A stretch of 59,074 nucleotides of DNA, the filler included, from Jimgerdemannia flammicorona (Eukaryota): assembly GCA_003990765.1 (NCBI GenBank). It is 2 parts of 2 records of this genome, joined end to end, with 100 filler letters (N's around TTAATTAATTAA, not from the genome) between each part and the next. Parts side by side here need not be neighbours in the genome. Positions count along the whole stretch, not along the records: positions 1 to 29,497 come from RBNJ01000496.1; 1 more part is not named here. One strand, written 5' to 3'. Under the pieces are notes generated by a model that was not told the DNA's origin, searched no databases, and was given only the letters and a program-made list of their open reading frames with translations. Position numbers and translations under genes: made by a program. Position 1 is the stretch's first letter. The number at the start of each line of letters is the position of its first letter. Below are positions 12,970 through 45,278 of this stretch, one piece after another.

Positions 12970-13308
12970 TCATTGGTCCAGTCTGAAAAATTTGCTGATC
13001 CTATAATCTCTAGCAGGAAGTCAAAAAGTGATATTTATAGACTGATATCTTTCTTATATATTTTGACATGATGGTGAAGAGTTACTCCCTTCATATAGAG
13101 TAAGGGCCTGATTCTGATCTTGACCAATCAGTTGATAGTTCAAACTTCTCTAGTTTCGAAAGTCTCATAAATGAGTAGTTACTAGTGCCATATCTCTTAG
13201 AGAATGGTCCAGACAGATTGTCTGCTGATCATGAGACATACTGTTATAATTTGTAGACTAGAACCTTATGTATGGTTATTATGTTTTGCTTCTCTTATAT
13301 AGGTTCAT
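12970..13308 (-). pseudogene. Putative accessory ORF3 of Gypsy B (113 codons, unknown)
   Basis: The ATG overlaps the integrase end at the same position as in family A. All internal stops are revertible to Q/R/W codons, and the frame fills the integrase-PPT interval. Confidence 0.5.
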
Positions 13309-14495
13309 AGTACTTTTTGAGTCTGTTTCTATATACTGTGGTAAGCAGTATATATAGTCTTTGAGAGTTTTCTAAGCTAAAAGGTAGTTCTCTTGATATC
13401 TTATAAATAGAAGGGTCCTTCCCATTTGGGCTCCAGTTTTCATGACCATGAGACTTCTATCATATTTTGATATAGTAAGACCTTTTCTCTGATTTGGATG
13501 AGTTCTAGGATCTTGTAATTCTTTTCTGCATTCTTTCTTATCAGTACTTGTGATTTGATGATATAATCTTCAGCCTTCTTCTTGATTTAGTATAGTCTTC
13601 AGATTTCTGAGTCAATCTATCTCTATATTAGATCTATATTTGTAGCTAAGGTTCCATCAGAATCTTCTTCAATAAAGAGCAGTTCTCTTGGAGTAAAGTG
13701 TATACTCTATAACTATATATCTTGTAGAATAGAGAGGACAGTTGAGAGGTAGTTATCCCAATTGTCATATATGTCTGAGATCTTTACTAGGATATTCTTG
13801 AGGGTCTTATTGATTCTTTCTATCTGTCCATTTCTTTGAGGGTGATATGTGGTGGTCTTGATATACTGAATCTTATATTTCTGATATATTATCTCATAAA
13901 ATCTATTGACAAACTCTATACTGCAGTCTGTGATAATTTGCCTTAGTGTCTTATAGTAGTAGATGATTTCTTAGTACAGGAAGTTAGCTATAGAGAGAGT
14001 ATTAACTTCTTGTAATACTCCTGCTTCTATCTATTTGATAAAGAAATCTACAATAACTATAATATAGTAGTTTCCTGATAATGTTACTGATAGTGGTCCA
14101 ATAATATCCATTACAATATAGTGGAAGAGGATAGGCTCAATTCTTGATAACTCAGGTATCTGGTCTTACTGATCTTATTTCTGTTTTTGGTACTTATCAT
14201 ACTCATTGACAAATTAGTATAAGTCTTCTTCCATCTTAGGTCACCATATAGTTCTTTTTACTTTGTTATATATATTGATTTCTCTTAGGTATCCTTGTTC
14301 ATATACTTTCTTCATTACTTGATACTTCTTATATTCAGATATTATAAGCTTTCCTCCTTTTCTGAGTATAATATTGTCTAGTTCAAATCATTTCCAAGTC
14401 TAGTTAATGATAGTAATAGTCCAGGGTTTGAGGTGGTTAGATATTTTCTGCTGCTCAAGATAGCTGATTAATCCATAGTATAGCTCCTTATTTAT
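13295..14495 (-). pseudogene. Integrase pseudogene of Gypsy B in a separate frame
   Basis: (M/I)NKELYYGLISYLEQQK, TTYHPQRNGQIERINKTLK, KLEPKWEGPF and NRLKKYYEPI*. Confidence 0.85.
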
Positions 14496-16472
14496 GTTGA
14501 ATAGTCTTGATGGGAGTATTTTGAGGTATCCTTGAGAGTATATCAGTATTGACATTAGTTCTTTCTGAATAGTGTTTGACAGTACAGTTATACTCTTGTA
14601 GTCTGTAGATTTATCTGACATATATTCCTTTAGAGTTCAGAGTGTGGAATAGCCAGACAAGAGTGAAATAGTCTATTTGAATAGTAAAGTATTTCTTGGC
14701 TAAGTAGTAGTAGAACTTATCTACTGTCCAAACTACTGCTAAGCATTCAAGCTTGCATGACTCATAGTTCTGTTCTGCTCTATGGATACCTTGGCTTATG
14801 TAGAAGATGACCTATTCATATCTATCTTTCTTCTGAGCTAAGACTGCTCCAAGTCCTATAGTACTTATATCTGTCTGCAGAATGAACTCTAGGTTCTAAT
14901 CTGGTCTTCTGAGAATGGGTGCTTGGATCAATTTAGTCTTAAGTTTATTAAAGGTTTCTTGATATTTCTTGGTCCATTCAAATTTAGTCTCCTTCTTTAG
15001 TAGCTCATAGATATGTAAGTGCTATAATATTAGAGTATTCTTTGATAAATCTTCTATAGTAAGAGGCCAGTCCAAGGAAGACATAGACTTCTATAGTTGT
15101 TCTGGGTCTTAGATAGACTACAATAGTCTCAATCTTCATAGGGTCTGTCTGAATTCCAGTCTGGTTGATAATGTGTCCTAGGTAGGTGATTTTCTGAGCT
15201 ACAAACTTGTACTTCTTGGGCTTAATATAGAGACCATACTTCTTGAGCTTCTTGAGAGCTAGCTGTATATGGTTGATATATTCTCATACAGTGATACTGA
15301 AGATGATCACATCATAAACATAGACAAAGAGCCATTTTCCAATCTCATTGCTGAAGACTCTGTTCATTATTTACTGAAAACTTACTAGAATATTGTATAT
15401 TCCAAATGGTATTTATAGGTAGATATAGGTGGCATCAGGTGTGATGAAGACTGATTTCTTACTGGTATCTTAAGTGAGACCAATCTGATAGAAGCCTGAA
15501 AACAGATCTAAGGTAGTATAGTATTTGGCTTTACTTCCAAGAGTGATAAGAATTTCTTAAATATTTGACAAGGGCTGCCTATCCTTCTTGGTAATTATAT
15601 TGAGCTTTCTGTAATTAATATAGAGTTTTGGAGCAAACTCTCCAGGTTTGCTTCTTTTCTTTGGAGTAAGGACAATGAGTGAAGCCCAGGGGCTGATAGC
15701 TTGCTTGATGATTCCAGCTTCTTTCATTTCTTTGAGTTCTACTCACAGCCATTCTCTGTAGGCAGGTGGTATAGGTCTGGCTTTCTGATAGATAGGCTTG
15801 ATATTACTGGTATCAACTTCATAATAATACTTAGGTTCTTAATTATGGATGTCTCTGAAGTCTGTGGCAAGTACTCCTTCATTCTGATACAGGATCTTGA
15901 GAAGTTGTTCTTCTAGAAGAAAGTTTTCTCCAATGATATATATGTATTTATTCTGGTCCTTATCTTTCTTATACTCAAGTTCAGTAATCTTAGTAGCAAT
16001 ATAGGCTCCTCTTCCAGTAGATCTAAAGTCTTATTCTTCTCTCTTAGTCTTGATGAGTTTGATGACTTCAGTGATCTTGGACTTCTTGACTTCATAGATC
16101 AGTATCTGGCCAATCCTATTATGCTTCTTGATTTCAAATGGGGTGGTAGAGTTGTAATTTCTGACTATAAGAAAGATCTTACCAGTATAATCAGGGTCAA
16201 ATACTCCTTCTTCAACTGAGATTTTGCTTTTGACCAAACTGCTCCTGGTTTTGATAATTCCAGCATAGTTCTATGGCAACTTGACTTCAATTCCAGTACT
16301 AAGTAGAGTAATAGTCTGTGGTTTAAAGATAGTATTTTGAATACTGGCAAGATCTATTCCTATGGCTCCTTTAGTCTTATATTCTGGAATCTTGGCTTTA
16401 GGATAAAACTTCTTAATCTTGAGAGTGATGTCTGGTTCTTATTCCTCCTCATCATCACTATCAGCTTGAAGC
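14488..16472 (-). pseudogene. dUTPase-RT-RNase H portion of Gypsy B pol
   Basis: dUTPase at about 16010-16430, SPWASLIVLTPKKRSKPGEFAPKL, a YVYD catalytic remnant and FILQTD. Confidence 0.9.
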
Positions 16473-17515: not shown

Positions 17516-18010
17516 TGTGATAGTCAATCTGAATTAGTAACATGAATCAGGGGAATTAGACATTTGATCGTGGTACCTAAATCCAACTCCCAATATAGCT
17601 TAGCCTTACAAATAAGCAGTTATATTTTACAAGTGTAGAAACTTTAATACTTGTAGAAACTTTGGCAATTGTAGAAATTCTACAGATGTAAATCCTTCAT
17701 GATTGTAAAGATTCTAGCAGATGTAGAATTTGCACTTGCTGACTCATAGAAAACATAGTCATAACTTAGCCACCTTATAACTAGCAAAACTTATATAAAT
17801 AACCCAGTATCTTAGAGTGAATAAATCTCAGATCAAAATAGTTCAAAGCAAAGAGATAGCAAAGGAACTAGTAAGCCTGCAGGCAGATACACTTTGAACT
17901 CACCCACCCTCCCCTGCAACTTCAAGAGACTCTGCGAGAGTCAGAACAGTCAAGTTTTCAAGATACAGAAATCCAACGTACTTTCAAGAGTAAGCATCTG
18001 CTACATTACA
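17516..18010 (+). repeat. 5' LTR of A2
   Basis: TGTGA...TTACA, direct repeat of 24997-25491, with about 21-bp TGTAGAAA subrepeats and TATATAAAT near 17792. Confidence 0.96.
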
Positions 18011-18013
18011 ACT

Positions 18014-18130: not shown

Positions 18131-21100
18131 ATGAGACTACCAGTATTCCATAGATATACCTCAGATGAATCAATCATCACCTTCATTGATGATTTCGAGC
18201 AGTATACTGCTGTAAGAACCCTGACAGCAGCACAGCAAGTAGCCCTTATGCCCTTTAGCCTATGAGGCCCTGCAAGAGTAGTATTCACAGCTGTAAACCA
18301 TGTGGGAAATGATGCCGATACTACACTGATAGCATAGAAGACCTGGCTTCGAACCACCTACTATACAGATAAGATCAAGCAAGCTCTGAAGGATCAGCTC
18401 AATACAATATACCAAGGAATGAGTGAAGATCCAAACACATTCTATACCAGAATCTGATATCAAATAATTCTTGTGGATTATGCTGATGCTATTCAAGACC
18501 AAGTAGTCAAAGCAACCTTTATGAAAGGAGTCTACCCAGAGATAGCTATGGCCATCCACTCATTATCAGTAATTCTGAATCTGCCACAGAAGGTCACCTA
18601 TACTCAGCGATACTGGATAGCTAGACATCTACAAGATCATACAATGGAAAGAGTCATGGGAGTCAAAATCGAAGCACCCAAGGCAACCAGTGTGATCTCT
18701 ACCACAATGATCAATCGAAACACACCTCAGCCAAAAGCTACAGAGCAGCAAAAGAACAGTGACCCTATGGAGGAACTTGCCAAAAGGTTTGCCAAAATGA
18801 CTGCCCACCTGGAAGATATAGTAAAGGAAATTCAAGGAAGAGACCACCACCCTGTTCAGAAGTTTGCTGCTACCTCAGATAAGAAGAAAGGCACCTGCTA
18901 TACTTGTGGAGAAGAAGGCCACTACTCATATAAATGTATGAGTGAAACTAAGTACAAGGCCCAACCAAGCAATGCTACTAGAAATAAGGAACAGACCAAC
19001 ACAATCACCTTTGAAGAAATCGGAGAATCTGATGAAGAAGAATGGGAGGCCTATCCTGCTCAGACCATCAAGAAGGATGTTTGCAAAGAACCCTACAAGA
19101 GACTGCCAGGAAGACCCAAGAAGAACCCAGTGAAAAAGCAGATAGAAACTGCCACAGAAAGCCAAGCCAAAGAGATGGACCAAGATATGGAGCTGGAGCA
19201 AGCAGTTCAAGATATCATCCAAGGAACCACTCCAGCCAGTGAAGGAGAAAAAGAAAAGAAGCTTCGCAAGACCAAGACCTTCAAGTATGATATCTTCAAG
19301 GACCTCAGTCAACAAAAGATCAATGCAACCTTTGGTTAGCTTGCAGAAATCTCAATATTCAGACAGCAAATGAGGTTTGGACTTGCCGAAATAACCAAGG
19401 AACAAGGATGGAAGATAACCAAGGCCAACAATATTCAAGAGGACTCAGGAGAAGAAAGTGAGGACAATTGCAAAACCTCTGCTTATGCAACATGCCAAAT
19501 CGAAGATAAAATCTTTGAAGCCATTATTGATACTGGAGCAGGAGGATGTCTCCTCAGCAAGAAGGCAGCAGACTGCCTAGGTTGGGATGTGGAAGAAGCA
19601 ACTAAGCTGGTGTTCATCACAGCCAATGGCACAAGAGCCACACCTCTGGGAAAAATCTGAGATGTTCCTGTCAAGATAGGAGGAGCAACCATCTCAGTAG
19701 ATGTAATTGTAACCAATGCCACCAACTATGATATCCTCATCGGCAATCAATGGCTTCACAAAGCCAAGGCAGTAATCGATCTCAATGCTCAGAAGATGCA
19801 GATCACCTACCAGGGACAGAAGATATGAATTCTCATCAATATCAATAAAGGAGTCCTGCCTGACATGGAGGAAGAAGAGAGTGAGCAAGAGGAAGCTTAT
19901 ATGGTGACTACTCCAAAGAAGAAGAAAGTTAGATGGATGAGTGAAGAAGAATAGTGCAAGAAGATTGTAGAAGATTATGCACCACAAGGAGTCTGTCCTC
20001 ATGGGATCAAGATGTACTATATGGAGCATATCAATGATTGCTATCAGTACACCATTGGAATCAAGAAGACCTATGAGGAAAGAAGACAGAAAGCCCTCAA
20101 GAAACAGGCCAGAGAAGAAGAGAAGGAGGAAGATGACAAACCACCAGCCCTCCTGGAGGATAGTGATGATGAAGAAGAAATCAAGATCAAGATTCGAAAG
20201 ATCCACTCTGATGCAGTCTTGCCAGAATACAAGTCAGAAAGCACAGCCAGAATGGACATTGCTATAGTAGAAGAGACTGTACTGGAACCCCAGACAACTA
20301 CCCTACTTGCAACTGAACTGGAGATGACCATCCCAAAGGATCATGTTGGGATTCTCAAGACAAGAAGCAGCCTGGCTAGAAGTGAAATCACAATCAAAGA
20401 AGGAGTCATCGATTCAGACTATACTGGAGAAATTCTACTCATTGCTAGGAATCACAATCCTACAATCCCATTTCCAGTCAAGAAGAAGGACCAATTGATG
20501 CAAATGTTGATCTTTTTGATCCTACAACCAAAGATCATAGAAGTTAAGAAGCTGGAGGAAACAAAAAGAGGAAAGAAAGGATTTGGATCTATAGGAAGAG
20601 GAGTATTCACCAGTACCAAGATCACCAAACTCGAGCATAAGAAGGAGGAAAACACAAGCAAGCACAGCTACACCATCGGAAATGAATTTCCACTCAAGAA
20701 AGACCTCAAGGAAATACTCTATGAATTTGAAGATATCCTTACCACAGATTTCAAGGATATCAAAGGAAAGACCCCACACTACTATCATAAAGTAGATACT
20801 GGAGACACCAAACCAATTTATCAGAAGGCAAGATCTGTCCCACCAGCCTACTGAGAATGGCTCAGAGAAGAAATCAAGCAGATGGAAGAAGCCAGCATCA
20901 TTAAAGAAGCCAGCAGCCCCTGGTCCTCACCTATTGTACTAGCTCTGAAAAAAGACAGCAAGCCTGGAGAATTCACCCCAAGACTCTGTGTTGACTACAG
21001 AAAGCTCAACATGGTTACCAAGAAGGATCACCAACCACTGCCCCTCATCAATAACATCCTCATAACACTGGGAGATGAAGCACAGTACTACAGCACTTTG

Positions 21101-22117
21101 GACTTATACTCAGGATTCCACCAAATCGGACTCACAGACATGGCAAGTGAAAAGTCAGCTTTCATCACCCTAGATGGAACCTATGTCTACCTATGAATAT
21201 CATTTGGAATGTGCAATGCATCAGCAAGTTTCCAGCGAATGATGAATAAAATCTTCTACTATAAAATCGAAAGATGGATGATGGTCTATGTTGATGATGT
21301 AATTATCTACAGCCAGACACCAGAAGAACACCTGCAGCATATCCGGCAGATAATGGAAAGACTGAGAGAGCATGGCCTATACATCAAGCCCAAGAAATAC
21401 AAATTCACAGAAATTGAGATCTCTTATCTTGGTCACATCATCAACCAAGATGGAATACACATGGACCCTCTCAAGATACAAGCAGTGGCAGCATACCCAA
21501 GACTCACCACTGTTACAGAAGCACAAGTCTTCATAGGACTCACCTCCTATTATTGCAGATTTATTAGAGGATTTTCTAATATTGTGAGACCAATCTATAA
21601 ACTTAACAAGAAGGACACCAAGTTCCAGTGGACTGGCAGACAACAAAAAGCATTTGATGAACTCAAGGTTAGACTGACCCAGGCACCCATCCTCAGAAGA
21701 CCTGACTGGACTCAAGAATTCATCCTACAGACTAATGCAAGTGCACAAGGACTAGGAGCAGTCCTAGCTCAAAAGAAAGATAAAGTGGAGTATGTCATCA
21801 CATACCTCAGCTGTGGAACCTGAGGAGCTGAAAAAGAATATAAATCCTACAAGTTGGAATGCCTTACAGTCATCTGGGCCATAGAAAAGTTCTACTACTA
21901 CTTGGCTGGAAGATACTTCACCATCCAAATGGACCACTCAGCTCTCACCTGGCTACTGACAACTGGACAACCCAAAGGAATCTATGCCAGATAGATAATG
22001 AAGTTACAAGCTTATAATGTAACCATTGTACACTGCTCTGGAAGAACCAATACCAATGTAGATGCCCTCTTACAGATACCCTGAACTACTTCCAACCAAT
22101 AAATCAATCATGAATAA
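18131..22117 (+). pseudogene. gag-protease-dUTPase-RT-RNase H single ORF of A2 (in-frame stops only)
   Basis: ORF pieces at 18473, 19370, 20012, 20882 and 21209 share one frame. Motifs: CYTCGEEGHYSYKC knuckle, IIDTGA, LCVDYRKLN, YVDD, FILQTNAS and DAL. Confidence 0.95.
20180..20596 (+). pseudogene. dut: dUTPase domain between protease and RT
   Basis: Trimeric dUTPase motifs: ARMDI, KTRSSLA, GVIDSDYTGEI, DQLMQMLI and RGKKGFGSIG. Confidence 0.93.
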
Positions 22118-23312
22118 GGAGCTCTACTACAGAATTATCACATACCTGGGACAGCAAAAGATGCCCCAATATCTGGAAGAATGGACACAAATGATTATCA
22201 ATAGAATATGGAAACAATTCAAAACTGACAGAGAAACACTGAAGAAAGGAAAACTACTAGTTATACCAGAACACAAGAAGGAGCAAGCAATGAAATCAGT
22301 ATATGAACTTGGCCATCTAGGAGGAACAAATACTTATGACAAGGCAAGAAGAACAATATGGTGGCCAGAGATGGAGGAAAATATCAGACAATTTGTCAAG
22401 ACCTGTGACAAATACCAGAAACAGAAACAAGACCAACAAAATTGAGTCCCAGGATCAGTACACATAGAACTAGTACCATTCACCCACATTGCAATAGATG
22501 TAATTGACCCTCTACCCTTAACTTTGACTGGCAACTGATATATCATCATCATCATAGACCTTTTTACAAAATAGATAGAAGCAGGACTCCTTATGGAAGC
22601 CAATGCACAGTCAATCGCTGATTTCTTCTACAAAGAAATCATCTGCCGATTCAAGACCCCATTGCAAGTAACCACAGATAGAGGAACAGAATTTGTGAAC
22701 CAGTTCTTTGAAGTTCTCTATAAGAAGTACAAGATTCAGTATATTTGGACCACAGCATATCACCCTCAAGGAAATGGACAAGTAGAAACAACCAACAAGA
22801 CCCTCAAGAATGTTATTGCCAAGATCTGTAATAACTACAAGAACTGAGATCACTATCTACCAATAGCATTATCCACTCTCCGGGATATCCGATCACAAAG
22901 TACCCACTTTATCTCTTGAGAAATACTATTCGAAGAAGAATGTTCTCAGGGAACCCTATCATCCAATGGAGATGCTATATGGAAACACATGGACATAGAA
23001 ATATGAAGACTATACCAAATCAGGAAGAAGGCTGAGGATTACATAACCAAGGCACAGACACTACAATGGAGGAATGCGGAAAAAACCCACAAACCTCTGG
23101 AGATTATCAAGATAGAAGACAAAGTCCTAGTGTATCAGAATATGGTAGAAGCTTCATGGTCACGAAAACTAGAGCCCAAGTGGAAAGGACCTTACCTTGT
23201 GCAAGATATAAAAGGGACCACCTTTTGGCTATGAAAACTCTCAGGCACAATCATCCCCACTACTATCTACTAAAACAGACTCAAGAAGTACCATGACCAG
23301 CCAATAAAGTAA
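22110..23312 (+). pseudogene. Integrase ORF of A2 (401 codons, +1 frame relative to pol)
   Basis: MNKELYY, HLGG..WWP..C, TDRGTEF, HPQGNGQVE and KWKGPY (GPY/F). No chromodomain seen. Confidence 0.92.
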
Positions 23313-23754
23313 CACAGCTGCCCTCAAGATCACCAGTGCCACCCAATGAGCCATAGAGAGATAATGGTATTCTATCAAACTGCTAACAATGGAGGAATCC
23401 TTTGATAGTATACAAAGTATAGTCCAGACCCACCTATCATGAATTTCACACTTCAAAGCCTACTAGACATGAACTGAGTTTCAGAAATACTTTAAGCTAG
23501 GACAACTACTGAATTCAAATTCAAAGATGGGGAAAGAAGACTGGATTAAAGAATGTCAGCTCACCTACATTCAGATCACAATTGCCAAGAGAGTGCACAA
23601 ATTATTCAAAGATGATGAGTCAGCTCTAGCTCATCTTCGAGAAGTAATCCCAGGAGATTTCGGATAGGTTAGGAGACAATATTGGAAGAATGTAATGGTG
23701 CAAATTGCACAGTACAAGGAGATACAGATCGTAGAAGCCTGGGAGTTTGAGTGA
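23293..23754 (+). pseudogene. Accessory ORF3 of Gypsy A (154 codons, unknown function)
   Basis: Fills the integrase-PPT interval. The frame is conserved with copy A1, including synonymous differences. The start is uncertain because codon 5 is TAA in both copies. Confidence 0.75.
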
Positions 23755-24996: not shown

Positions 24997-25491
24997 TGTG
25001 ATGGTCAATCTGAATTAGTAACATGAATCAGAGGAATTAGACATTTAATTGTAGTACCTGAATCCAACTCCCAATATAGCTTAGCCTTACAAATAAGCAG
25101 TCATATTTTACAAGTGTAGAAACTTTAACACTCATAGAAACTTTGGCAACTGTAGAAATTCTACAGATATAAATCCTTTACAATTGTAAAGATTCTGGCA
25201 GATGTAGAATTTGCACTTACTGACTCACAGAAAATGTAATCATAACTTAGCCATCTTATAACTAGCAAAACTTATATAAATAACCCAGTATCTTAGAGTA
25301 AATAAACCTCAGATCAAAATAGTTCAAAGCAAAGAGATAGCAAAGGAACTAGTAAGCCTGCAGGCAGATACACTTTGAACTCACCCACCCTCTCCTGCAA
25401 CTTCAAGAGACTCTGTGAGAGTCAGAACAGTCAAGTTTTCAAGATACAGAAATCTGACATACTTTCAAGAGTAAGCATCTGTTACATTACA
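24997..25491 (+). repeat. 3' LTR of A2
   Basis: Direct repeat of 17516-18010; the differences seen are transitions. Confidence 0.96.
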
Positions 25492-25495
25492 ATAT

Positions 25496-25890
25496 ATAGT
25501 ATTATTTTATATGCAAATATATAGAAAACAGCACTATATACTTAGAATATATCTCCATAGAGTATATAATTGCAGACTTGTTGACCAAAGCCCTTCCAAA
25601 GCTGAAGTTTGAGTAATATACTAAAGAAATAGGTCTTATAAGTTATATATCAGTATTCAGTTAATTACAAAATACTTTTCAGACTATTAAAAGCCTTATA
25701 CTATATATATATCTATGAGTAGATTATATATATTACATTTTTTTATATTCTTTACCTATAGATAGATATTTCAGATATTTTAAGTATTCCAGAATACTTT
25801 TTGACCTATGAAAATTCCTTGAATATAGGATTTTATATAGTAAATTGAGTTATATATAGTTCTAGTTTTTTATATATATTATGCATTTAG

Positions 25891-25962
<72 letters not shown>

Positions 25963-26143
25963 AGTATATGTTTTATTTTTTTTTTTTTAGTTACATATCT
26001 CATTGAGTAAGAGTATTGAGATGACAGCTTGATATATCAGTGTATGATCTTATACTATTCTATCATATTTATATCATTTATCAGTAAAGTATAAAATATG
26101 TAATCTATACAACTTCAATAAAAAAACCCCTCTCTTTATAATA
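25496..26143 (+). mobile_element. Copia RNase H end, 3' UTR with poly(T), PPT and a 3' LTR of about 130 bp (26014-26143)
   Basis: I*YYFICKYIE...IADLLTKALPKLKFE. The LTR is homologous to the reverse complement of 48141-48270. Confidence 0.85.
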
Positions 26144-29597: not shown

Positions 29598-32552
29598 TTT
29601 TTTATAGTTATAAAGACTTCTACTTTATTATAAAACTGTCTATAATATACTAATACAAATGAGCTCTTCCCTCAATCTCACTTGGGAACTCCCTCTCCTC
29701 TTCATTATTTCTTTGAAACACTGCTAACTCCCCTTCTATCTCAATCCTCTTCTCACTCTTTCTGCAGATTGTCTCCATCAATCACCTCCAATACCCCCCA
29801 CCAGCACTCTCACCCCTCCACTATCCATTTAATATATCTGTCATCAGCTACTCCCATCTAGCCACTCTTACCCTCAATGTCAACTGTTGACTCTCCTCAA
29901 ATATATATAGCCAATGTCCTGCAAGTCTAATCCAAATTGCCAGTATCTATCCTAATATCAACTACTCATCTCCTAACCCCCCCACCAGCCTCCTCCAGAG
30001 GTCACTCCATCTCTTTCCTGCTGCTAACCCTAGTGAATATATCTCTAGCCACATCTCAATCTCTTTTTAAAAGTCACACATTACCTCATACTCTCCTAGT
30101 TGATGCTCAGGAGTCTGTACTACTCCTCTCTTCTGCCCAATGTTCAGACACTCCTCATACTCCTGGATACCTCCTTCCACGAAGTGGTCTATTCAGTATT
30201 TCAATATTATATAATATTATAGAATTCTCCACCATACTATCCAAAACTTGTAGGGGATTCATCTCACTGCCTGCTTACCTTACAGTCAAATGTTATTTTA
30301 GTCATATTTCTCTTCAATTCCCACCCCTTGCCATGTCTCAGACTACAGATCTCTTCTATGTTCCTGAAGGCACTCTATGCTATTCTCTAAGCAAAGTCAT
30401 CCACTAATGTTCTGTCTAATAGAAGATAGTCCCACCTCTATATCTGAGATTTCCATTCCTCCTCCCCCTCATCACCCCTCTATTGAAGACCAATACAGTG
30501 TGCCCCATCAATCACCCCTTATCAGAATTCCCTATATTGCATTCTCTGACTCTTCTCCAAAGCCACCAGAGTTAGAAGATCCCCAGTTGTACTATAGAGA
30601 GAAAACTGGACCTCCTACACCCTCTGCATGTGGGAAACCCCCTCTCAACCTCTTAACTCACTTACTTGCTTCAGCTACCTTACTCTCAAGTAGTAAAGTT
30701 ACTTAGAAAAATCCACCAGACTCAGGCCTCCCTGGTCTACTGGCCAGATCAATACCTTACAACCAATCTGACTCTATTGCCCTACCTATATCTAGGTTCT
30801 GGCCATCTTCAACAATCACTTTACCACTTATGCTGAAAAGGCCAAGTAGTACCCCAGATACTATAGCTTAAACAACTAGTATATATTCAATACTATTACC
30901 TTTTCTGTCAGAGATATATAGTAACCGCCCCACTTCAAGAAAGTACTTCTCTACTATATCAACTGCTTCTCCTATCACCCATATAGTAGCAAGGAGCCAT
31001 ATACCAAAAAGTAAATTTCCAGATAGTAAACAATCTCTCCTACAGAGATAATTGTTCCAATTATATCTCTACCTATTATCTCTTCTCTCAACACTATAGT
31101 CTCATACTTATACCAGTTGAGCTTTGTATCCAAGTACTCCTCAAACCACTCTACTGCACCTTTTAGCACTGCAACATCCTTAGCTGACCCCAGTCCAACC
31201 ACCATATTATCAGCAAAGACCCCCACCTTTCTATTAATCCCCAGAATGTCCAACTCTTCCACCTTTTACTATATTCTATCCAAAAGAGGCTCCAGAGATA
31301 ATATATATAGAATCAGTAATAGTGGATCTCTCTGCAGCACTTCTTGGCCCAGAGGGAACAAAATTCCTTTATATCTATTTATTATAATTACTGTCCAACT
31401 CCCTTCCAGTAGACCAATCAAGGCCTACCATACTCCAGGGGGGACTTCAATATACTTTAGTACTCCTTTCAACTATACATACCAGACTCTATCATATGCC
31501 TTCTTCTGGTCTAAGAAAACTAGCTGCCTATTCACTCCAGTAGTATGAGTACCCTTGATAATACCATGTATCCAGGCTGTCCCATCTCTAATTAGATGTC
31601 TCCCAATAAATTCTTTCTGCTCAGCCCACAGAACCTATTGAGTCACTTCTTGTAGCCTAGCCACTAGTACCTTTATGACCTGTTTGCAATCCATATCCAG
31701 AAGTATAATCATCCTCCAGTTCTTTCACTTCTCTCTTCTCTTCTTATTCTTAAACAGCAGAGCTATAAGATCCAAGCTCTGCCCTCTCATCCATACCCTA
31801 GAGCCAATCACTTCATCATATATTGCCATTATTTCCTCTTGGACAGTAGCACCTAGATTACTTAAGCCTGCTGTCAGATCAGAGTGCTATTCATCCAAGT
31901 ATCTGTCAATGTTCAGTACCTCCACTCCTCTATTCTCCTCACTCTATAAATATCTCCACCATCTGCTTAACTGGTCTAGAATCTCTAGCCTCCCAACAAC
32001 CAACTCCCCAGACTCATCCAAAACACCCTCTCACTACTGCCATACTCTCCTCATCAGTAAAAGCTATAACAAAAACTTGGTAGGTCTTTACCCCTCCTCT
32101 AATCTCTATCACTACAGGCAGGCCACTATGTTCTTAACCTGTAGGTCCTCTTCTTACCTCAGTATACTCTTTAGCTCCTCTACCTCTAGCCTGATCTACT
32201 GTATTTATTAATCTCCTTTCTTATCATCATTCAATAGATCTATCTACTAAGTCATCAATAACCTTACATACCACTAGAAGACCTACCTCACTCAACTTCT
32301 TTCTCTGAGTACCCCACATTCTTCCTGCCTCCCTCCAGTATCATTGTGCCTCAGATTTCAATTATATCCAGTGATTCTCAATCTCCAGCCTCTCTGCTCT
32401 CCAACTAAGAATCCTGGAGCTAATATCTACTACCCACACCTCCTATAGAGAGGCCTAGGTATTCAGTCACCAATGTCCAGACCCCTCTCCACTACTCTCA
32501 AAACACCCCTCTTCTAGAAGACCTCAGTGATCTGACATAGATACTATATAGT
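29598..32552 (-). mobile_element. L1/Tx1-like LINE copy 1, 3' part (RT to poly(A))
   Basis: Reverse-complement homologue of about 35250-38344, with FLDQKKAYD, QRDPL and VFADN. Confidence 0.9.
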
Positions 32553-32630
32553 CATATGGGCCCCTTTTACTGACAACATTCAGATGACATAAGACTCAGG
32601 CAACACTTTTTACAATGTTTTTGGTGATAG

Positions 32631-34559
32631 ATGAGTATCGACATAGATAGCAATGATTACACAGGTGAGCGTGCTGGTCAGGGGAGCAGTGGTGCCTTTG
32701 GCTAGCAATAAGTGGAGAGGAGGGGAGATGGTTTGGGGATGCCAGGGGACTTGATGGCTGGTAGAGGTACTGGTGGTAGAGGGAGGGGTGGCCTGAGGCA
32801 AAGTGGAGAGGAGAGGTCAACCTTTGCTGACAAGGTCAAGATGGGGAGAATGGCCACTAGTCTGGATGGTTGGCTGGGCCTGGGGAAGGCATCAATAGCT
32901 ACTGCTGGGGGACAGAGAGGAGTGTCCAGGGGAGTGTCCAGTGGTAGGGGAGGGGGGGGAGTAGGGGCTGGAGATGTGACTGTTGATGGAGCTGTGACTG
33001 GGGATCTGGAAAAAAATCCAGATATGATTGCAGTTGATGGTTCAGGACAGGGGGTGGGCATGAGGCCCAGGGACCTAGTGGATGGGGTGATGGGCATGGT
33101 GTTGGCACCATTACACAAGAAATCAAGATCATAATTTGCTGTCACATTGTGTTTCAGGGGCTTGGTGGTAACTGTAAGGATAATCTTGGGGCTGGTGATA
33201 CAGGAGGTGAAAGGGGTAGCATTGGTGAAGTTTTTGAAGAGGAAGGAAGGGGTCGAGGTAGGGTTTGAGGAAGAGGAAGCATTGCTGGCTACCATGGAGA
33301 AGTGGGTAATAGTGGGTGGGGTTGTGGTTCCTATGGCCAGGTGCATGTACTGGGACCCTTGTATGATATAGTTGATGATGTTGGATCTTCCTATGGTATT
33401 GAGAGAGAGGGCCAGGGAGTTGATTGTGGGAGCAGTCAAGGAGTATGGAGATATTGTAGACATCAGGTTCAAGGTCTGGGAGGGTACAGAGCTCTGGACA
33501 GGTGATGTTGATGTCTGGGTGAGACTGGTTGGAAAGGAGAACATGAGGAAGACAAGGGATTAGTCAGTGACTCTGAAGTGGGGACAAGTGGAGTACAAGG
33601 TTGCAAGGGTGAAGGGGACTCAGGAAGAGGAGGAAGATTTGCTTGAGGCTCTGGAGGATCTGGCTGGTGTGGTTGAGAGGAGGAGATTGGCTTGGAAGGA
33701 GTATGAAGCCAAGATAGTTGTGGAAGTCGTTGATGAGAAGAGGATCAGGATAGATTAGGTGATCTGGGAGAAGATACAGGGGAGGAGAATCCAGAAAGAA
33801 CTGCTGGTGAAGTTGGATGATGGTGGGGCTGGTGGCAGAGCAAGGGATGGGAGAGCAGGATTGTGTGAGAGTGTCTGGGCTGGGGAATGAGAGATGGCCC
33901 AAGGTGGGGCCAAGAATGGACCAAGGAAGAAGAGGGAGGGTAGTGTAGAGGTGGATGCAGAAATGAGCGAAGGAGTACACCCTCAGTATAGTGTCCTGGG
34001 TGGGGCAGGGGGTGAGGAGGAGTTACTGGATATCCCAGATGAGGAGGGGGATGAGTCAGTAAGGAGGAGCACTTTAGTGGACCCAGAGGTGGGGGGTGAT
34101 CAAGTCACCCAGGGTATGGCAGAGGCAGTGGATGAGGAAAAGTGGCTGTGGAAGACTCTGGAAGGGGTAGCAGCAGAAGAGTTGGGGGGTGAGGACTTCC
34201 AGGTTATGGAGGAGAGGCATTGGGAGGAAATTCTTCATAGTGAGGAGATACCAAGAAAAGTGTGGAATGAGATCCTGGCAGTTCTCTTGGAATCAGTTGA
34301 ATACCAAGTTGATGATCAGAGAGAGGAGGAACTTAGAGGGATTGCAAATGACCAGGCAGCTTACTTGTAGGGCTTGAGGAAGGGATTGGAGAAGTGGAGA
34401 GTGGTCTGCACAGACTATCAGTTAGAGATGGAGGTGGTGGATGGGGTGGAATATCAAGAAATCTTGGAAGCATTGGATGCTCAGGCTATCATAGAGGGTG
34501 ACTTGGAAGCAGAGCAGTACTTGGATCTGGCTGGGGATGAGATGAGTATGGAATACTAG
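32631..34559 (+). pseudogene. LINE ORF1 (Gly-rich N-terminus, RRM-like middle, acidic C-terminus)
   Basis: In-frame pieces at 32712, 33147, 33372, 33567, 33894 and 34374. LDLP...EYGDIVDI...WTGDVDVWVRL. No CCHC knuckle seen. Confidence 0.85.
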
Positions 34560-34590
34560 GCTGGAGTCTCAAATCCAAACATTATTCAAT

Positions 34591-37500: not shown

Positions 37501-38265
37501 GGCAGTGTTTTGGTGGAGGACTTCCAGCTTGGCAATGAAATGGAGTATTTGCAGGGCTTAGGTGGGAACCTTTTGCCTGAAACCTGGCAGAGGGTTGGGA
37601 TTGGCAAGGTGTGAGAATGGAATGGTCTCTGGCTTTGGGGCAGGTGGGTGATGTGGTGGCTACCCCCCAAGTTCTGGGTGGTTTGGTGGTAAGTTCTTAG
37701 GCAGAATGTGATGTTGAACTATCAGTCTGGGCACTTGGTGGCCAGTGGCACGTTTGAATGTGAGAAATGTTCAGATGTTGGACAGGAAGGGGGAGTGATA
37801 CAAATGCCTGAACATTGGCTTGGCAAATGTGATGTTTTGGGGATGTTTGGCATCATATTGCAGACTGGTTAGGGCTGCAAGCCCTGAAAGGAGAGGAAGG
37901 GGGGAGATGGAGAGAGCTCTGCCAAAGACTGGTAGGAGGGTTTGGGGATGAATGGCTGATCCTTGGTTGGGTTCTGGCCATATGGGTCAGGCTGGCTAGA
38001 CATTGGGTATATGTATTTGAGGAGGGCCAGTGGGTTGGCATTGGGGATAAGGTGGTACATTGGAAATAGTTATTACTGGATATTTTGAATGGCTGGTGGT
38101 GAGGGTGAGGACCAGGTGGGGGGAGTCACAGGGGGTTGGTACAGTGTATCTCCCAGAAAAGTGGCGGGAGAATTCAGGTGGTGGGTGACTGGGTTGTCCT
38201 CTAGCAGGGGGGAGTAGAGGATGGAGGAGTAGATCCGAGGGGTATCAGTTGAAGGGAAGGGGTGA
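34591..38265 (+). pseudogene. LINE ORF2: AP endonuclease, reverse transcriptase and C-terminal Cys/His motif
   Basis: SLNVNGL, GGDFN, SDH, NWQPIMLLDMDCK, LDQEKAYD, GVPQGDPLSPILY, FADN, YLGI and CEKC..EHWLGKC. Confidence 0.93.
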
Positions 38266-38360
38266 TATTGTATTATTATTATTATAGACAGCCATAATAA
38301 AGAGAAGTCCAAGTGACTATAAAAATAAAAAAAAAAAAAAAAAAATAGACACTATACAGT

Positions 38361-42093: not shown

Positions 42094-45000
42094 TATAATG
42101 GTTGATCTGAATTAGGAATATAAATCAGAGAAATTTGATATTTGATTGTAGTACCTGATCCCAATTCCCAGTATAGTATAGCCTTATGAATATTAGTTAT
42201 TTTACAAACATTAAAGTTTCATGAATGTTAAACTCTTCACAAATGTTAAGAATTTACAGATGTTAAATTTTTGATAATTATCAAAGATTTAACAAATGTC
42301 AAGAATTAACATTTGTAAAAAGTAACTCATAACATAGTTATAACTTAGCCTCTATATAGCTAGCAAACTTGTATAAAAAATCCAGTATCTTAGAGTGAAT
42401 AAACCTCAGATCAAAATAGTTCAAAGCTAAGAGAAAGTAAAGGAACTAGTAAGCCTGCAGACAGATATACTTTGAACTTACTCTCCTGCACCCTGAGGAC
42501 TCTGTGAGAGTCCGAATAAGTTAAGTTTTCAAGATATAGAAATCTGCTATACTTCTGAGATTAGATGTCTACTATATTATAACTTGGTACTCATTGGCTG
42601 GTAATTCAAGACAAATCCATCACTTTCAAACTGAATAATGAACAACTACTACCACCCAAACAACTATACAAATTGAACCAAGACATCCAGACAAGATAGA
42701 TATAAGACCATCAGTATTTCATAGATATACTTCAGATGAATCAATCATTATCTTTATTGATGATTTGAGCAGTATACTATTGTAAGGACCCTGACAGCAA
42801 TACAGCAAGTAGCCCTCCAGCCTTTCAGTCTCTGAGGATTAGCAAGAGCAGCATTTACAGACAATATGTGGGAAATAATAACAATATAGTACTAGTTGCA
42901 CAGAAGGCCTGGCTCCAAGCCACCTACTATATAGATAAGATCAAGCAAGCCCTGAAATTTCAGCTTAATATAACTTATCAGAGAATGAGTGAGGATCTAA
43001 ACACATTCTATACCAGAATCTAATATCAGATAATTCTTGCAGATCATACTACTACTATCTGAGATCAATTAGCAAGACAACCTTCATGAAAGGAGTTTAC
43101 TCAGAGATAGTCCTAGCTATTCACTCATTACTAATAGTTCTGGATCTATTACAAAAAGTTACCTATGCCCAGTGATACTGGATAGCCAGATACTTGCAAG
43201 ACCATACAATAGAGAGAGTCACCAGAGTTAGAATTGAAGTACCCAAGGCAACTAGTGTAATCTCTACTATAGTGATCAATCAAAACATACCTCAGTAAAG
43301 AGCTACCAAATAGTAGAGAAATAGTGACCCCATGGAGAAACTCACTAAGAAGTTTACTGAAATGACAGCTCATCTAGAAGATATGGTAAAGGAAATTAAA
43401 GGAAGAGATTGCTGCCAAGCTTAGAAATTTGCCACTACCTCAGACAAGAAGAGAGGTTCCTACTACTCTTGTAAAGAAAAAAGCCACTGCTCATATGAAT
43501 ATATCAGTAAAACTAAGTACAAGGTCTAGTCAAGCAATGCTACTTGAAATAAGAAACAGACCAACACTATTACCTTTGAGGAGATTGGGGAATTAGATAA
43601 AGAGGAATAAATGCCTACTCTGCCAAAACTATCAAAAAAGATATCTACAAACAAACTCTACAAGAGACTACTAGAGAGACCCAAGAAGAACTCTGTGGAA
43701 AAATAGATAGAGACTGCTACAGAAAGTCAAGATGAAGAAACAGATCCAGATATGGAACTAGAACAGGTTATTCAAGATATCATATGAGGAATCACTCTAG
43801 TTAGTGAAGGAGAAAAGGAGAAAAAGCTTTACAAAATCAAGACCTTCAAGTATTATATCTTCAAGAATCTCAGTCAACAAAAAGGCAATACAATCTTGAC
43901 CAGCTAGCAGAAATTTCTGCATTTAGACAACAAATAAGATATAGACTTGCTGAGACAACCAATGTTCAAGAAGACTTAGGAGAAGAGAGCAAAGACAATC
44001 ACAAGACCTCTGCCTATGCAATCTATCAGATTGAAGATAGAATCTTCAAAGCCATCATTGAAACAGGAGTAGAAGGATAAGAAAGTAGCAGACTGCCTAG
44101 GTTGAGAAGTTGAAGAAGCAACTAAGCTAGTATTTATCATAGCAGATAGTATAAGAGCCACACCTCTGAGAAAGATCCAAGATATTCCCATCAAGTTTGG
44201 GGGAGCAACTATTCTGATGTGATTGTAACCAATGTCATCAATTATGACATCCTTATTGATAATCAGTGGCTTTATAAAGCCAAAGCAATAATTAATCTAA
44301 ATACTCAGAAGATGCAGATCATCTACAGAGGCCAGAAGATGTGAATCACCATTAATGTTAATAAAGGAGTATTGTCTGAGATGGTGGAAGAAGAATGTGA
44401 GCAAGAAGAAGTATATATAGTAACTACTCAGAAAAAGAAGAAGAAAGTCAGATAGATCAGTGAAGAAGACTGATGTAAGAAGATTACAGAAAGATATACA
44501 CCACAAGAAGTCTGCCCCCATAGAATCAAGATATACTGTAGCAAGCACATCAATGACTGCTACCAATATAGCATCAGCATCAGAAAGAACTATCAGGAAA
44601 GAAGACAGAAGGTTCTTGAAAAGCAGACAAAAGAAGAGGAGGAAGAGGATGACAAACCATCAGCTCCCTTAGAGGATAGTGATGATGAAGAAAAAATCAA
44701 GGTCAAGATTTGGAGGATCCACTCTGATGCAGTTCTATCAGAAAACATATCAGAAAATACAACCATAATGGATATTACCACAGTAGAAGAAACTGTACTG
44801 AAGCTCCAGACAACTATCCTACTTGCAACTGGTCTAGAGATGACTATTCTGAAGGACTACATATATCAGAATCCTCAAAACAAGAAGTAGCCAGGCTAGG
44901 AGTGAAATCACAATTGAAGGAGGAGTTATCAATTCAGATTATATTGGAGAAATACTATTTATGGCTAGGAACCACAATCCTACAATTCCATTTTCAATTA

Positions 45001-45278
45001 AGAAGAAGAACTGACTGGCACAGATGTTGATCTTCCTAGTTCTTCAGCCAAGGATCATGGAAGTCAAGAAGTTGGAGAAAATAGAAAGAGGAGAGAAAGG
45101 ATTCAGATCCACAGAAAGAGGAGTATTTGCTAGTATCAGAATCACTAAACTAGATTACAAGAGGGAGAAAACTGCAAACAGATATGGCTACACTATTGGA
45201 AATGAATTCCCACTCAAAAAGGAACTCAAGAAGATACTCTATGAATTCAAGAATGTCTTAGCTACAGATTTCAAGGAT
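42094..45278 (+). mobile_element. Gypsy family A copy A3, 3'-truncated (LTR, PBS, gag, protease, dUTPase)
   Basis: 5' LTR at 42094-42581, PBS at 42585, colinear with 17516 to about 20758. Confidence 0.93.

What the first reader, a model, noticed from the sequence alone, without database searches (positions are those of the whole stretch)
22061..22130. Gypsy integrase is a separate, overlapping ORF conserved across two families
Seen: in A2, gag through RNase H is one frame ending TAA 22115-22117, and integrase starts in the +1 frame at ATG 22110 (cATGAATAAg, MNKELYY). The same offset, 16 codons plus 1 nt after the RNase H DAL motif, occurs in A1 (ATG 3864, TAA 3869-3871). It also occurs in divergent family B on the minus strand (ATA 14495, TAA 14490-14488), although the linker sequence differs. 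Established: Ty3/Gypsy integrase is normally in-frame with RT-RNase H and released by the protease. Inference: this is not decay. Integrase would be made by stop-start reinitiation, a programmed +1 shift or a subgenomic RNA, and may need another route into the particle.
Basis: partly seen in the sequence, partly recalled or inferred. Interest (0 to 1): 0.88.

Follow-up and report, generated by a model that had tools for sequence, protein, structure and literature searches.

The report
Separate integrase gene in Gypsy retrotransposons
In these jumping genes the integrase is not part of the usual long polyprotein: it is a separate gene whose start codon sits on the stop codon of the gene before it, a layout kept in many intact relatives, so the ribosome probably stops and restarts there.

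Summary
All three copies that span the junction (A1, A2, B) end the RNase H frame at TAA five bases after the first base of an integrase ATG (ATA in B) lying in the +1 frame, with no indels between the DAL motif and NKELYY.

The window copies are decayed. A2 has 10 premature stops in gag-pol and 9 in integrase. The junction itself is not decay:
- An intact metagenomic relative (L011, 1281-codon gag-PR-dUTPase-RT-RH ORF) has the same ATGAATAAGGAGCT junction.
- Every premature A2 pol stop is a sense codon in L011. Only the junction TAA is shared.
- 73 of 113 database integrases start exactly at this M. 3 of 3 N-extended ones keep it.
- In 11 distinct related elements integrase is always out of frame, but the direction varies: +1 in 3, -1 in 8. 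The pol stop always lies within -5 to +8 nt of the ATG (ATGA, TAATG, TGATG, ATGAATAA and others).

A conserved ATG with stop-start adjacency and a variable frame direction favours termination-reinitiation over a programmed +1 shift. A local hairpin 20-70 nt downstream resembles the one in SART1. No expression data were available. I found no report of this layout for LTR retrotransposons. I rate it a new variant of a known kind.

The parts
17516..18011 (+). A2 5' LTR (TG..CA ends)
   Evidence: blastn of the two ends: 496 nt, 94% identical to 24997-25492
18458..22117 (+). A2 gag-PR-dUTPase-RT-RNase H reading frame (decayed: 10 premature stops), ending at the junction TAA 22115-22117
   Evidence: Translation and stop list. 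Pfam hits zf-CCHC, aspartyl protease, dUTPase, RVT_1, RT_RNaseH. The premature stops are sense codons in L011.
22061..22069 (+). DAL codons of the RNase H end motif (N-V-D-A-L-L-Q-I-P, decayed DALSRIP)
22110..22117 (+). A2 stop-start overlap ATGAATAA: integrase ATG 22110-22112, pol TAA 22115-22117 (integrase = pol frame +1)
   Evidence: The identical octamer and following GGAGCT occur in the intact relative L011.
22110..23312 (+). A2 integrase ORF (decayed: 9 stops counting TAA 23310). Integrase_H2C2 plus rve core, no chromodomain hit.
22130..22179 (+). Stretch homologous to the +20..+70 window in which relatives fold into an unusually stable hairpin. The window copies themselves were not folded.
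   Evidence: By position only. Hairpin statistics come from 12 metagenomic relatives.
24997..25492 (+). A2 3' LTR
122..5555 (+). A1, second copy of family A (77% identical to A2), 5' end cut by the window. LTR at about 5543-6038.
3864..3871 (+). A1 stop-start overlap ATGAATAA (ATG 3864-3866, TAA 3869-3871)
13305..16323 (-). Family B element, RT-RNase H-integrase part (67% nt identity to A2)
   Evidence: Its integrase is 67% identical to the intact database integrase P0151.
14488..14495 (-). B stop-start overlap ATAAATAA (ATA 14495-14493 is a decayed ATG; TAA 14490-14488)
42098..45278 (+). A3, third family-A copy, truncated upstream of the junction (uninformative)

Best explanation
The window holds decayed copies of two related families of a dUTPase-carrying Ty3/Gypsy lineage. 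In the working form of this lineage there are two genes on the full-length RNA. One long ORF encodes Gag, protease, dUTPase, RT and RNase H. A separate integrase ORF has its own AUG on or next to the first ORF's stop codon.

The most likely mechanism is termination-reinitiation (eukaryotic translational coupling). A ribosome that has translated gag-pol terminates at the stop. Part of the post-termination 40S stays on the RNA and restarts at the AUG a few bases away. This would yield free integrase at a fraction of the Gag-Pol level. A hairpin 20-70 nt downstream may help hold the subunit there.

Shown here: the two-ORF layout, its conservation in intact relatives, the conserved AUG, the stop-start adjacency, the variable frame direction and the local excess of folding energy. 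Inferred: that reinitiation is the route, that integrase is made in lower amounts, and how it reaches the particle or the cDNA.
For: (1) Same junction in 3 of 3 window copies.
(2) Intact relatives. L011 has a 1281-codon ORF (zf-CCHC, PR, dUTPase, RVT_1, RNase H) ending at ATGAATAA. L001/L002 have >=1577 and >=1746 open codons ending in ATGA, followed by an intact 418-aa integrase. L007 has a 1651-codon ORF.
(3) All 10 premature A2 pol stops are sense codons in L011. The junction TAA is shared.
(4) Of 113 integrase homologues, 73 begin at the M aligned to A2's M (63 of them >=380 aa), 3 N-extended ones keep the M, 0 lack it, and 37 are N-truncated or unaligned at the N-terminus. All 8 N-extended proteins among the 24 fetched from the representative search also keep it. 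The ATG is also present in 6 of 6 loci whose integrase frame is open 24-46 codons upstream.
(5) In 12 close loci (11 distinct elements) RNase H and integrase are never in frame. The offset is +1 in L006, L008 and L011, and -1 in L001/2, L005, L007, L009, L010, L012, L013 and L016. The first base of the pol stop lies at +1 (ATGA, 3 elements), -2 (TAATG 2, TGATG 1), -5, +5 (2), +7 or +8 relative to the A of ATG, although the linker after DALSR varies from 13 to 35 codons.
(6) L006 (+1) and L007 (-1) are sister lineages with 91/89 support. The frame therefore switches while adjacency is kept.
(7) Folding energy: the +20..+70 window has mean z -1.25 to -1.28 and Stouffer Z -4.3 to -4.4 (n=12). It is the only strong outlier among 25 sliding windows from -180 to +470.
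(8) Precedent from passages read: stop-start coupling at UAAUG with a hairpin 34 nt downstream in the non-LTR element SART1, and coupled termination-reinitiation in the fungal viruses CHV1 and HvV190S (PMC5902531, PMC10275272, PMC5972666).
Against: There is no expression, ribosome-profiling or protein evidence of any kind.

No calicivirus-type TURBS motif (TGGG[AGT]) occurs in the 100 nt upstream in 14 of 14 sequences. RNAalifold finds no consensus structure upstream (5 sequences) or downstream (12 sequences). The hairpins sit in different registers. They could partly reflect the conserved Y-L ... V/I-P codons, which a dinucleotide shuffle does not control for. The 12 sequences are related, so the Stouffer Z is inflated.

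For M-N integrases the ATGA stop in the -1 frame follows automatically from the coding sequence. Two more distant split elements have the stop 26 and 31 nt before the ATG (L041, L026). Reinitiation after an ORF of 1300-1700 codons is normally inefficient and needs special signals that I could not identify. The host organism is unknown.
Confidence: 0.6

Rival explanations
1. Integrase is translated independently from its own mRNA (spliced, like retroviral env or foamy-virus pol, or internally promoted) or from an internal ribosome entry site. On this reading the closeness of the pol stop is only genome compaction.
For: The conserved ATG fits any initiation-based route. The downstream hairpin could equally aid ordinary AUG recognition. 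L026 and L041 tolerate gaps of 31 and 26 nt. That separate Pol or Env mRNAs exist in retroviruses is recalled, not checked here.
Against: In 11 of 11 close elements and 3 of 3 window copies the pol frame stays open through a poorly conserved linker of variable length (13-35 codons) and stops within -5 to +8 nt of the ATG. An independent mRNA would not require this. No conserved AG or pyrimidine-tract acceptor was evident by eye just upstream of the ATG (not tested formally).
Confidence: 0.22
2. Programmed ribosomal frameshifting at the stop fuses integrase to RNase H. This would be +1, as in antizyme or the Euplotes AAA-UAA sites; B reads AAA TAA G.
For: In the +1 lineages, skipping the first base of the stop would continue in the integrase frame (A2 GAA-T-AAG, B AAA-T-AAG). 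The antizyme and Euplotes parallels are recalled, not checked here.
Against: 8 of 11 close elements need the opposite shift (-1), and no shared slippery sequence was evident by eye at the -1 junctions. The ATG, which a shift does not need, is kept in every case examined. Sister lineages L006 and L007 differ in direction.
Confidence: 0.04
3. The offset is an inherited lesion. A frameshifted, non-autonomous ancestor spread using integrase supplied in trans, and the integrase part is a dead remnant.
For: The window copies are heavily decayed, with 10 + 9 stops in A2 and an excess of C>T/G>A changes.
Against: 63 distinct complete integrase ORFs of 380-566 aa start at this M. Intact pol and integrase ORFs lie side by side on one contig in L001/L002. 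The split is shared by lineages whose integrases are only 30-50% identical.
Confidence: 0.02

Closest known systems
SART1 (Bombyx non-LTR retrotransposon) ORF1/ORF2 UAAUG translational coupling
   Same: A retroelement with two ORFs joined by overlapping stop and start codons. A hairpin about 34 nt downstream of the stop-start is needed (passages in PMC5902531, PMC10275272, PMC5972666). Here TAATG/TGATG/ATGA-type overlaps and a local hairpin at +20..+70 are seen.
   Different: SART1 is a non-LTR element, and its break lies between the RNA-binding ORF1 and the EN/RT ORF2. Here the break is inside what is normally Pol, between RNase H and integrase of an LTR element. Nothing has been tested experimentally.
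Stop-restart in fungal RNA viruses (Helminthosporium victoriae virus 190S; Cryphonectria hypovirus 1 UAAUG)
   Same: Coupled termination-reinitiation after a long ORF on a fungal host's ribosomes, dependent on coding sequence upstream of the stop (passages in PMC10275272; abstract of PMC2699510). Named relatives of the elements here are from fungi: Rhizophagus and Rhizopus.
   Different: HvV190S is proposed to use an upstream pseudoknot. I found an upstream hairpin in only 3 of 11 elements (L010, L012, L013) and no clade-wide upstream structure.
Calicivirus / influenza B TURBS-dependent termination-reinitiation (AUGA, UAAUG)
   Same: The same stop-start geometries (passages in PMC5902531, PMC5972666).
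   Different: No TURBS-like TGGG[AGT] motif in the 100 nt upstream in 14 of 14 junctions. Complementarity to the host 18S rRNA cannot be tested because the host is unknown.
Caulimoviridae polycistronic pregenomic RNA (CaMV TAV-mediated reinitiation)
   Same: Reverse-transcribing elements related to Ty3/Gypsy in which consecutive, closely spaced ORFs are translated by reinitiation (passages in PMC5902531).
   Different: CaMV needs a virus-encoded transactivator (TAV). That review says no TAV-like activator is known outside Caulimoviridae. No such protein was found here, and caulimoviruses have no integrase.
Canonical Ty3/Gypsy and retroviral Pol (PR-RT-RH-IN in one frame; Gag/Pol ratio set by frameshift or readthrough)
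   Same: The same domains in the same order, plus LTRs and a Gag zinc knuckle.
   Different: Here Gag through RNase H is one uninterrupted ORF and integrase alone is split off. PMC5902531 (passage) states that LTR retrotransposons translate Gag-Pol by frameshifting, in contrast to non-LTR elements.
Ogre/Tat plant Gypsy elements (intron inside pol)
   Same: An LTR element whose polyprotein region is interrupted (passage in PMC4408406).
   Different: In Ogre the break is between gag-pro and RT, and splicing repairs it. Here the break is RNase H/integrase, the distance from DALSRIP to the ATG is only 39-105 nt, and a conserved ATG marks the second ORF.

Membership tests
Ty3/Gypsy (Metaviridae) LTR retrotransposon | Long terminal repeats flanking the coding region | tested here: met
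   A2 LTRs 17516-18011 and 24997-25492, 496 nt, 94% identical, with TG..CA ends
Ty3/Gypsy (Metaviridae) LTR retrotransposon | Domain order Gag(CCHC)-PR-RT-RNase H-IN, with integrase after RT | tested here: met
   Pfam on A2, L001, L011 and L007
Ty3/Gypsy (Metaviridae) LTR retrotransposon | Integrase encoded in frame with RT-RNase H as part of Pol (the usual, not strictly defining, layout) | tested here: not met
   Out of frame in 3 of 3 window copies and 12 of 12 close loci. In frame in 15 of 37 loci overall, all of them more distant.
Chromoviruses (chromodomain Gypsy) | Chromodomain at the integrase C-terminus | tested here: not met
   Pfam finds only Integrase_H2C2 and rve in the A2 and L001 integrases
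dUTPase-containing fungal Gypsy elements | dUTPase domain inside Pol (here between PR and RT) | tested here: met
   PF00692 E=7.7e-21 in A2 and 1e-28 to 1e-32 in L001, L007 and L011. This position is reported for fungal, rotifer and planarian elements (passages in PMC2864245, PMC6431247).
Termination-reinitiation (stop-start coupling) systems | Downstream start codon within a few nucleotides of the upstream stop | tested here: met
   Offsets -5 to +8 nt in 11 of 11 close elements and 3 of 3 window copies. Gaps of 26 and 31 nt in two distant elements.
Termination-reinitiation (stop-start coupling) systems | Cis-acting RNA element near the junction (TURBS, pseudoknot or hairpin) | tested here: inconclusive
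   No TGGG[AGT] motif and no RNAalifold consensus. There is a localized excess of folding energy at +20..+70, Stouffer Z about -4.3, n=12.
Termination-reinitiation (stop-start coupling) systems | Downstream translation depends on translation and termination of the upstream ORF | not testable with these tools
   Needs reporter assays or ribosome profiling
Programmed +1 frameshift sites (Ty1/Ty3, antizyme, Euplotes type) | Conserved shift site giving a fusion protein, with a fixed direction of shift | tested here: not met
   The direction is +1 in 3 and -1 in 8 of 11 close elements. No shared shift site was seen. The ATG is conserved.

The most novel reading that the evidence does not exclude
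A large, previously undescribed lineage of Ty3/Gypsy retrotransposons, probably of early-diverging fungi and abundant in soil metagenomes, has taken integrase out of the Gag-Pol polyprotein. It expresses integrase by termination-reinitiation at a stop-start overlap, helped by a downstream hairpin. This would be the first LTR retroelement known to use translational coupling. It would also be a natural case in which integrase dosage and delivery are uncoupled from Gag-Pol assembly.
Probability: 0.5. Interest if true: 0.8.

Novelty: new variant of a known kind. Interest (0 to 1): 0.72.

Why it matters
Retroviruses and LTR retrotransposons are taught as making integrase by cutting it out of Gag-Pol. 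That route fixes its amount and guarantees that it is packaged.

A whole lineage that keeps Gag through RNase H in one ORF and makes integrase separately raises two questions. How does free integrase find the particle or the cDNA? Why would only integrase be turned down?

It would extend eukaryotic stop-start coupling, so far documented for non-LTR elements and some RNA viruses, to LTR elements. It also offers many natural sequence variants (ATGA, TAATG, TGATG, ATGAATAA) for dissecting reinitiation after very long ORFs.

There is a practical point too. Annotation pipelines that expect a fused Pol will call these elements broken or 'integrase-less'.

Tried and rejected
- Whole genome of the window: none is held. 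So 'all genomic copies' could not be aligned, and the host stays unknown.
- Earlier scan notes: nothing found by place, sequence or words.
- Sequencing runs: one soil-metagenome run, X1 (DNA?), holds a 0.10 share of the words. No RNA holder is listed. Laid at 80% likeness it gave 679 short contig pieces. The only indels listed between 20800 and 23300 are at 21586/21589 in one contig. The pieces are short and may come from other organisms, so I do not use this as evidence either way.
- Alternative genetic code as the explanation for the in-frame stops: rejected. In L011 the premature A2 pol-frame stops are ordinary sense codons (CAA, CGG, AGA, TGG, AGG, CGC, CGC, TGG, CGA, TAC), so these are ordinary substitutions, largely C>T/G>A.
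- TURBS-like motif scan: none found.
- Whole-window folding of 100 nt upstream and downstream: z-scores were mixed. RNAalifold predicted 0 pairs.
- ORFs downstream of integrase in relatives: no Pfam family, apart from one sub-threshold FRQ hit at the end of L001 that I regard as noise.
- IMG/VR scan: only 7 distant relatives at 25-34% identity.
- Cluster look-up to name hosts: no organism names.
- The '8-bp repeat family' reported by the repeat finder is poly-T.
- Literature: searches (0 papers), plus passages read, found no description of a separately encoded, stop-start-coupled integrase in an LTR retrotransposon. Subscription journals, Repbase entries and supplementary tables (for example Additional file 1 of PMC2864245, a .DOC listing ORF structures of fungal Gypsy families) were not seen and could hold such a note.
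Full report
WHAT IS IN THE WINDOW. The window is a nest of LTR retrotransposons in AT-rich DNA. A2 is a full element with 496-nt LTRs at 17516-18011 and 24997-25492, 94% identical. A1 (122-5555, plus an LTR to about 6038) is a second copy of the same family, 77% identical. A3 (42098-45278) is a third copy, truncated before the junction. B (16323-13305, minus strand) is a related family, 67% identical over the RT-RNase H-integrase part. The flanks of A1 and A2 are not homologous beyond the LTR, so these are independent insertions. Pfam on A2, read through with X at stops, gives zf-CCHC, aspartyl protease, dUTPase, RVT_1 and RNase H in one frame, and Integrase_H2C2 plus rve in the next frame.

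THE OBSERVATION. The RNase H frame of A2 reads N-V-D-A-L-L-Q-I-P (DAL = 22061-22069) and ends at TAA 22115-22117. ATG 22110-22112 in the +1 frame opens MNKELYY.... A1 has ATG 3864 and TAA 3869-3871. B has ATA 14495-14493 and TAA 14490-14488 on the minus strand. A three-way alignment of 500 nt has no gap between DAL and NKELYY. Three details need correction:
- A2's gag-pol frame carries 10 premature stops, two of them in the linker. Its integrase frame carries 9.
- The TAA is the 16th codon after DAL, while the ATG starts 13 codons plus 1 nt after it.
- B's ATA is a decayed ATG. The intact database integrase P0151, 67% identical to B, has M there.

DECAY VERSUS DESIGN. No genome is held for this window, so I looked outside it.
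- A phmmer search with the first 111 integrase residues against 1.84 billion representatives gave 289 hits. Long fused polyproteins matched only from about residue 37-46 (the zinc finger). The hits that aligned from residue 1 began at their own residue 1-3, or had an N-terminal extension that still kept the M.
- All 8 N-extended proteins among the 24 I fetched keep that M. Several of these extensions read like MQMHSQGYP, which is the +1 reading of N-A-D-A-L-S-R-I-P.
- A second search with the whole A2 integrase gave 113 hits. Of these, 73 start at the aligned M (63 are >=380 aa, beginning MN 38, MD 30, ME 4, MK 1). Three N-extended hits keep the M and none lacks it. The remaining 37 are N-truncated or unaligned at the N-terminus.

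DNA OF RELATIVES. A profile of 38 such integrases retrieved 79 metagenome loci. RNase H and integrase are both detectable in 37 of them: 22 out of frame and 15 in frame. All 12 loci whose integrase is closest (43-100% identical to P0171; 11 distinct elements) are out of frame. Several are intact:
- L011 has a 1281-codon ORF with the same Gag-PR-dUTPase-RT-RNase H domains, ending ...CATCATGAATAAGGAGCTG. This is the A/B junction.
- L001/L002 have >=1577 and >=1746 open codons ending GAAGAATGA, overlapping the ATG of an intact 418-aa integrase.
- L007 has a 1651-codon ORF.
Aligned to L011, each of A2's 10 premature pol-frame stops is a sense codon (CAA, CGG, AGA, TGG, AGG, CGC, CGC, TGG, CGA, TAC). 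The junction TAA is TAA in both. The window copies show a strong excess of C>T and G>A over the reverse changes (A1: 980 against 285), which is directional decay. The junction is therefore ancestral and belongs to working elements. The other stops are decay.

WHAT THE JUNCTIONS SAY ABOUT MECHANISM. Across the 11 close elements the frame relation is not conserved. Integrase is +1 in L006, L008 and L011 (as in the window), and -1 in L001/2, L005, L007, L009, L010, L012, L013 and L016. Two things are conserved: the ATG, and the position of the pol stop next to it.
- ATGA: L001/2, L005, L016.
- TAATG: L010, L013.
- TGATG: L012.
- TGAtcATG: L009.
- ATGgatcTAG: L007.
- ATGaacacTGA: L006.
- ATGAATAG: L008.
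- ATGAATAA: L011 and window A1 and A2. Window B has the decayed form ATAAATAA.
The stop is thus at -5 to +8 nt, although the linker after DALSR varies from 13 to 35 codons and is poorly conserved. On a tree of integrase N-termini, L006 (+1) and L007 (-1) are sisters (91/89), and A2, B and L011 form one clade (100/99). The base of that tree is unresolved. Two more distant split elements have the stop 26 nt (L041) and 31 nt (L026) before the ATG.
A dedicated +1 frameshift cannot explain the -1 lineages or the conserved ATG. Readthrough does not change frame. The distance between the conserved DALSRIP and the ATG (39-105 nt) leaves little room for an intron, and a splice would not need an ATG. 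Stop-start adjacency with a conserved AUG is the signature of termination-reinitiation.

CIS ELEMENTS.
- I found no TURBS-like TGGG[AGT] in the 100 nt upstream of 14 junctions.
- Folding 100-nt stretches gave mixed z-scores, and RNAalifold predicted no consensus pairs.
- A 50-nt sliding scan against dinucleotide shuffles singles out one window, +20..+70 after the A of ATG: mean z -1.25, Stouffer Z -4.3, and 5 of 12 sequences below z = -2.
- The next window is -55..-5 (Z -2.35), driven by L010, L012 and L013. The other 23 windows lie between -1.4 and +2.0.
- The hairpins start 21-33 nt after the ATG but in different registers.
- Caveats: the sequences are related, and shuffles do not preserve the conserved Y-L ... 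V/I-P codons. I treat this as suggestive. It parallels the hairpin 34 nt downstream of the UAAUG of SART1 (passage in PMC5902531).

BREADTH. A search with the RT-RNase H end of L011 for longer proteins returned 120 best hits. The RT-linked DALSR motif could be located in 102 of them. Of those 102:
- 50 end within 35 residues of the motif (25 within 1-4 residues and 25 within 5-35);
- 34 have tails of 36-400 residues (5 with an HHCC finger);
- 18 have tails over 400 residues (17 with HHCC).
Several short tails end in HE or YE (as expected for xATGAATAx) or in Q or K before the stop (as expected for xAA-TGA). Proteins cut by contig ends cannot be told apart, so these counts are indicative only. 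Named hits in this list include Rhizophagus clarus, R. irregularis and Rhizopus delemar proteins. The Entomophthora genome preprint reports enrichment of dUTPase together with retroviral protease domains (passage). The host of the window is not established.

COMPARISON WITH WHAT IS KNOWN. Three reviews, read as passages, were relevant:
- PMC10275272 and PMC5972666 name only non-LTR retrotransposons as using termination-reinitiation: SART1 in both, plus LINE-1 in PMC5972666.
- PMC5902531 contrasts non-LTR elements with LTR retrotransposons and retroviruses, which it says use frameshifting.
- The same process is documented for caliciviruses, influenza B and the fungal viruses CHV1 and HvV190S. 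A TAV-dependent form is documented for caulimoviruses.
Six full-text searches found no description of a separately encoded, stop-start-linked integrase in an LTR element. Unseen sources (subscription journals, Repbase, supplementary tables) could hold one. The dUTPase between PR and RT is already known for fungal, rotifer and planarian Gypsy elements (passages in PMC2864245, PMC6431247).

VERDICT.
- Best mechanism: termination-reinitiation at a stop-start overlap, confidence about 0.6.
- Main rival: independent initiation on a spliced or internal mRNA, about 0.2.
- Programmed frameshifting and an inherited lesion are unlikely.
- Novelty: a new variant of a known kind, namely an LTR retrotransposon lineage with an unreported gene-expression layout.
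- Interest: 0.72.
The missing piece is any expression or translation evidence.

Noticed in passing
window 20213-20590 (A2 gag-pol residues 586-711); also L001, L007, L011: A dUTPase domain (PF00692, E=7.7e-21 in A2) sits between protease and RT and is conserved in the intact relatives. This position is already reported for some fungal, rotifer and planarian Gypsy elements.
   Followed up: partly
window A1 (1-5560), A2 (18300-23400), B (12900-16400) versus L011: There is a directional excess of C>T and G>A over T>C and A>G (A1: 980 against 285). In context CpA > CpT > CpC > CpG, which suggests RIP-like or deamination-driven decay of the copies.
   Followed up: partly
window 22572-22574 and the aligned codon in L011: The same TAG (a W codon in FTKWIEA of relatives) interrupts the integrase of both A2 and the otherwise intact L011. 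This is either a recurrent G>A hit at TGG or a shared lesion.
   Followed up: no
L001 5960-6649, L002 6458-7156, L012 from 2782, L013 from 1738: In some relatives a further ORF of 157-233 codons starts 26 nt before to 16 nt after the integrase stop. It has no Pfam family. It may be a third gene or chance.
   Followed up: partly
proteins P0275-P0364 (for example P0329 Rhizophagus irregularis, P0330 R. clarus): A separate large group of pol ORFs ends only 1-4 residues after DALSRI (25 of the 102 hits where the motif could be located). Splitting integrase from RNase H may therefore be wider than the dUTPase clade studied here.
   Followed up: no
L010 1779-1835, L013 404-460, L012 1314-1350: Strong hairpins lie 5-15 nt upstream of the TAATG/TGATG junction in three related elements (z -2.5 to -4.8). 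Different stem sequences encode the conserved ERLPKGPPF-like tail. L009 and L016 lack them.
   Followed up: partly
window 6370-6490 and 25813-26030: Long poly-T runs lie a few hundred bases downstream of the 3' LTRs of A1 and A2. The repeat finder reported them as an '8-bp repeat family'. The flanks are otherwise unrelated.
   Followed up: yes
window 30000-40000: A GC-richer block (0.41-0.50) has very strong GC skew that changes sign (-0.42, then +0.28 to +0.54, then -0.35). It is probably another element or an inverted structure. I did not examine it.
   Followed up: no
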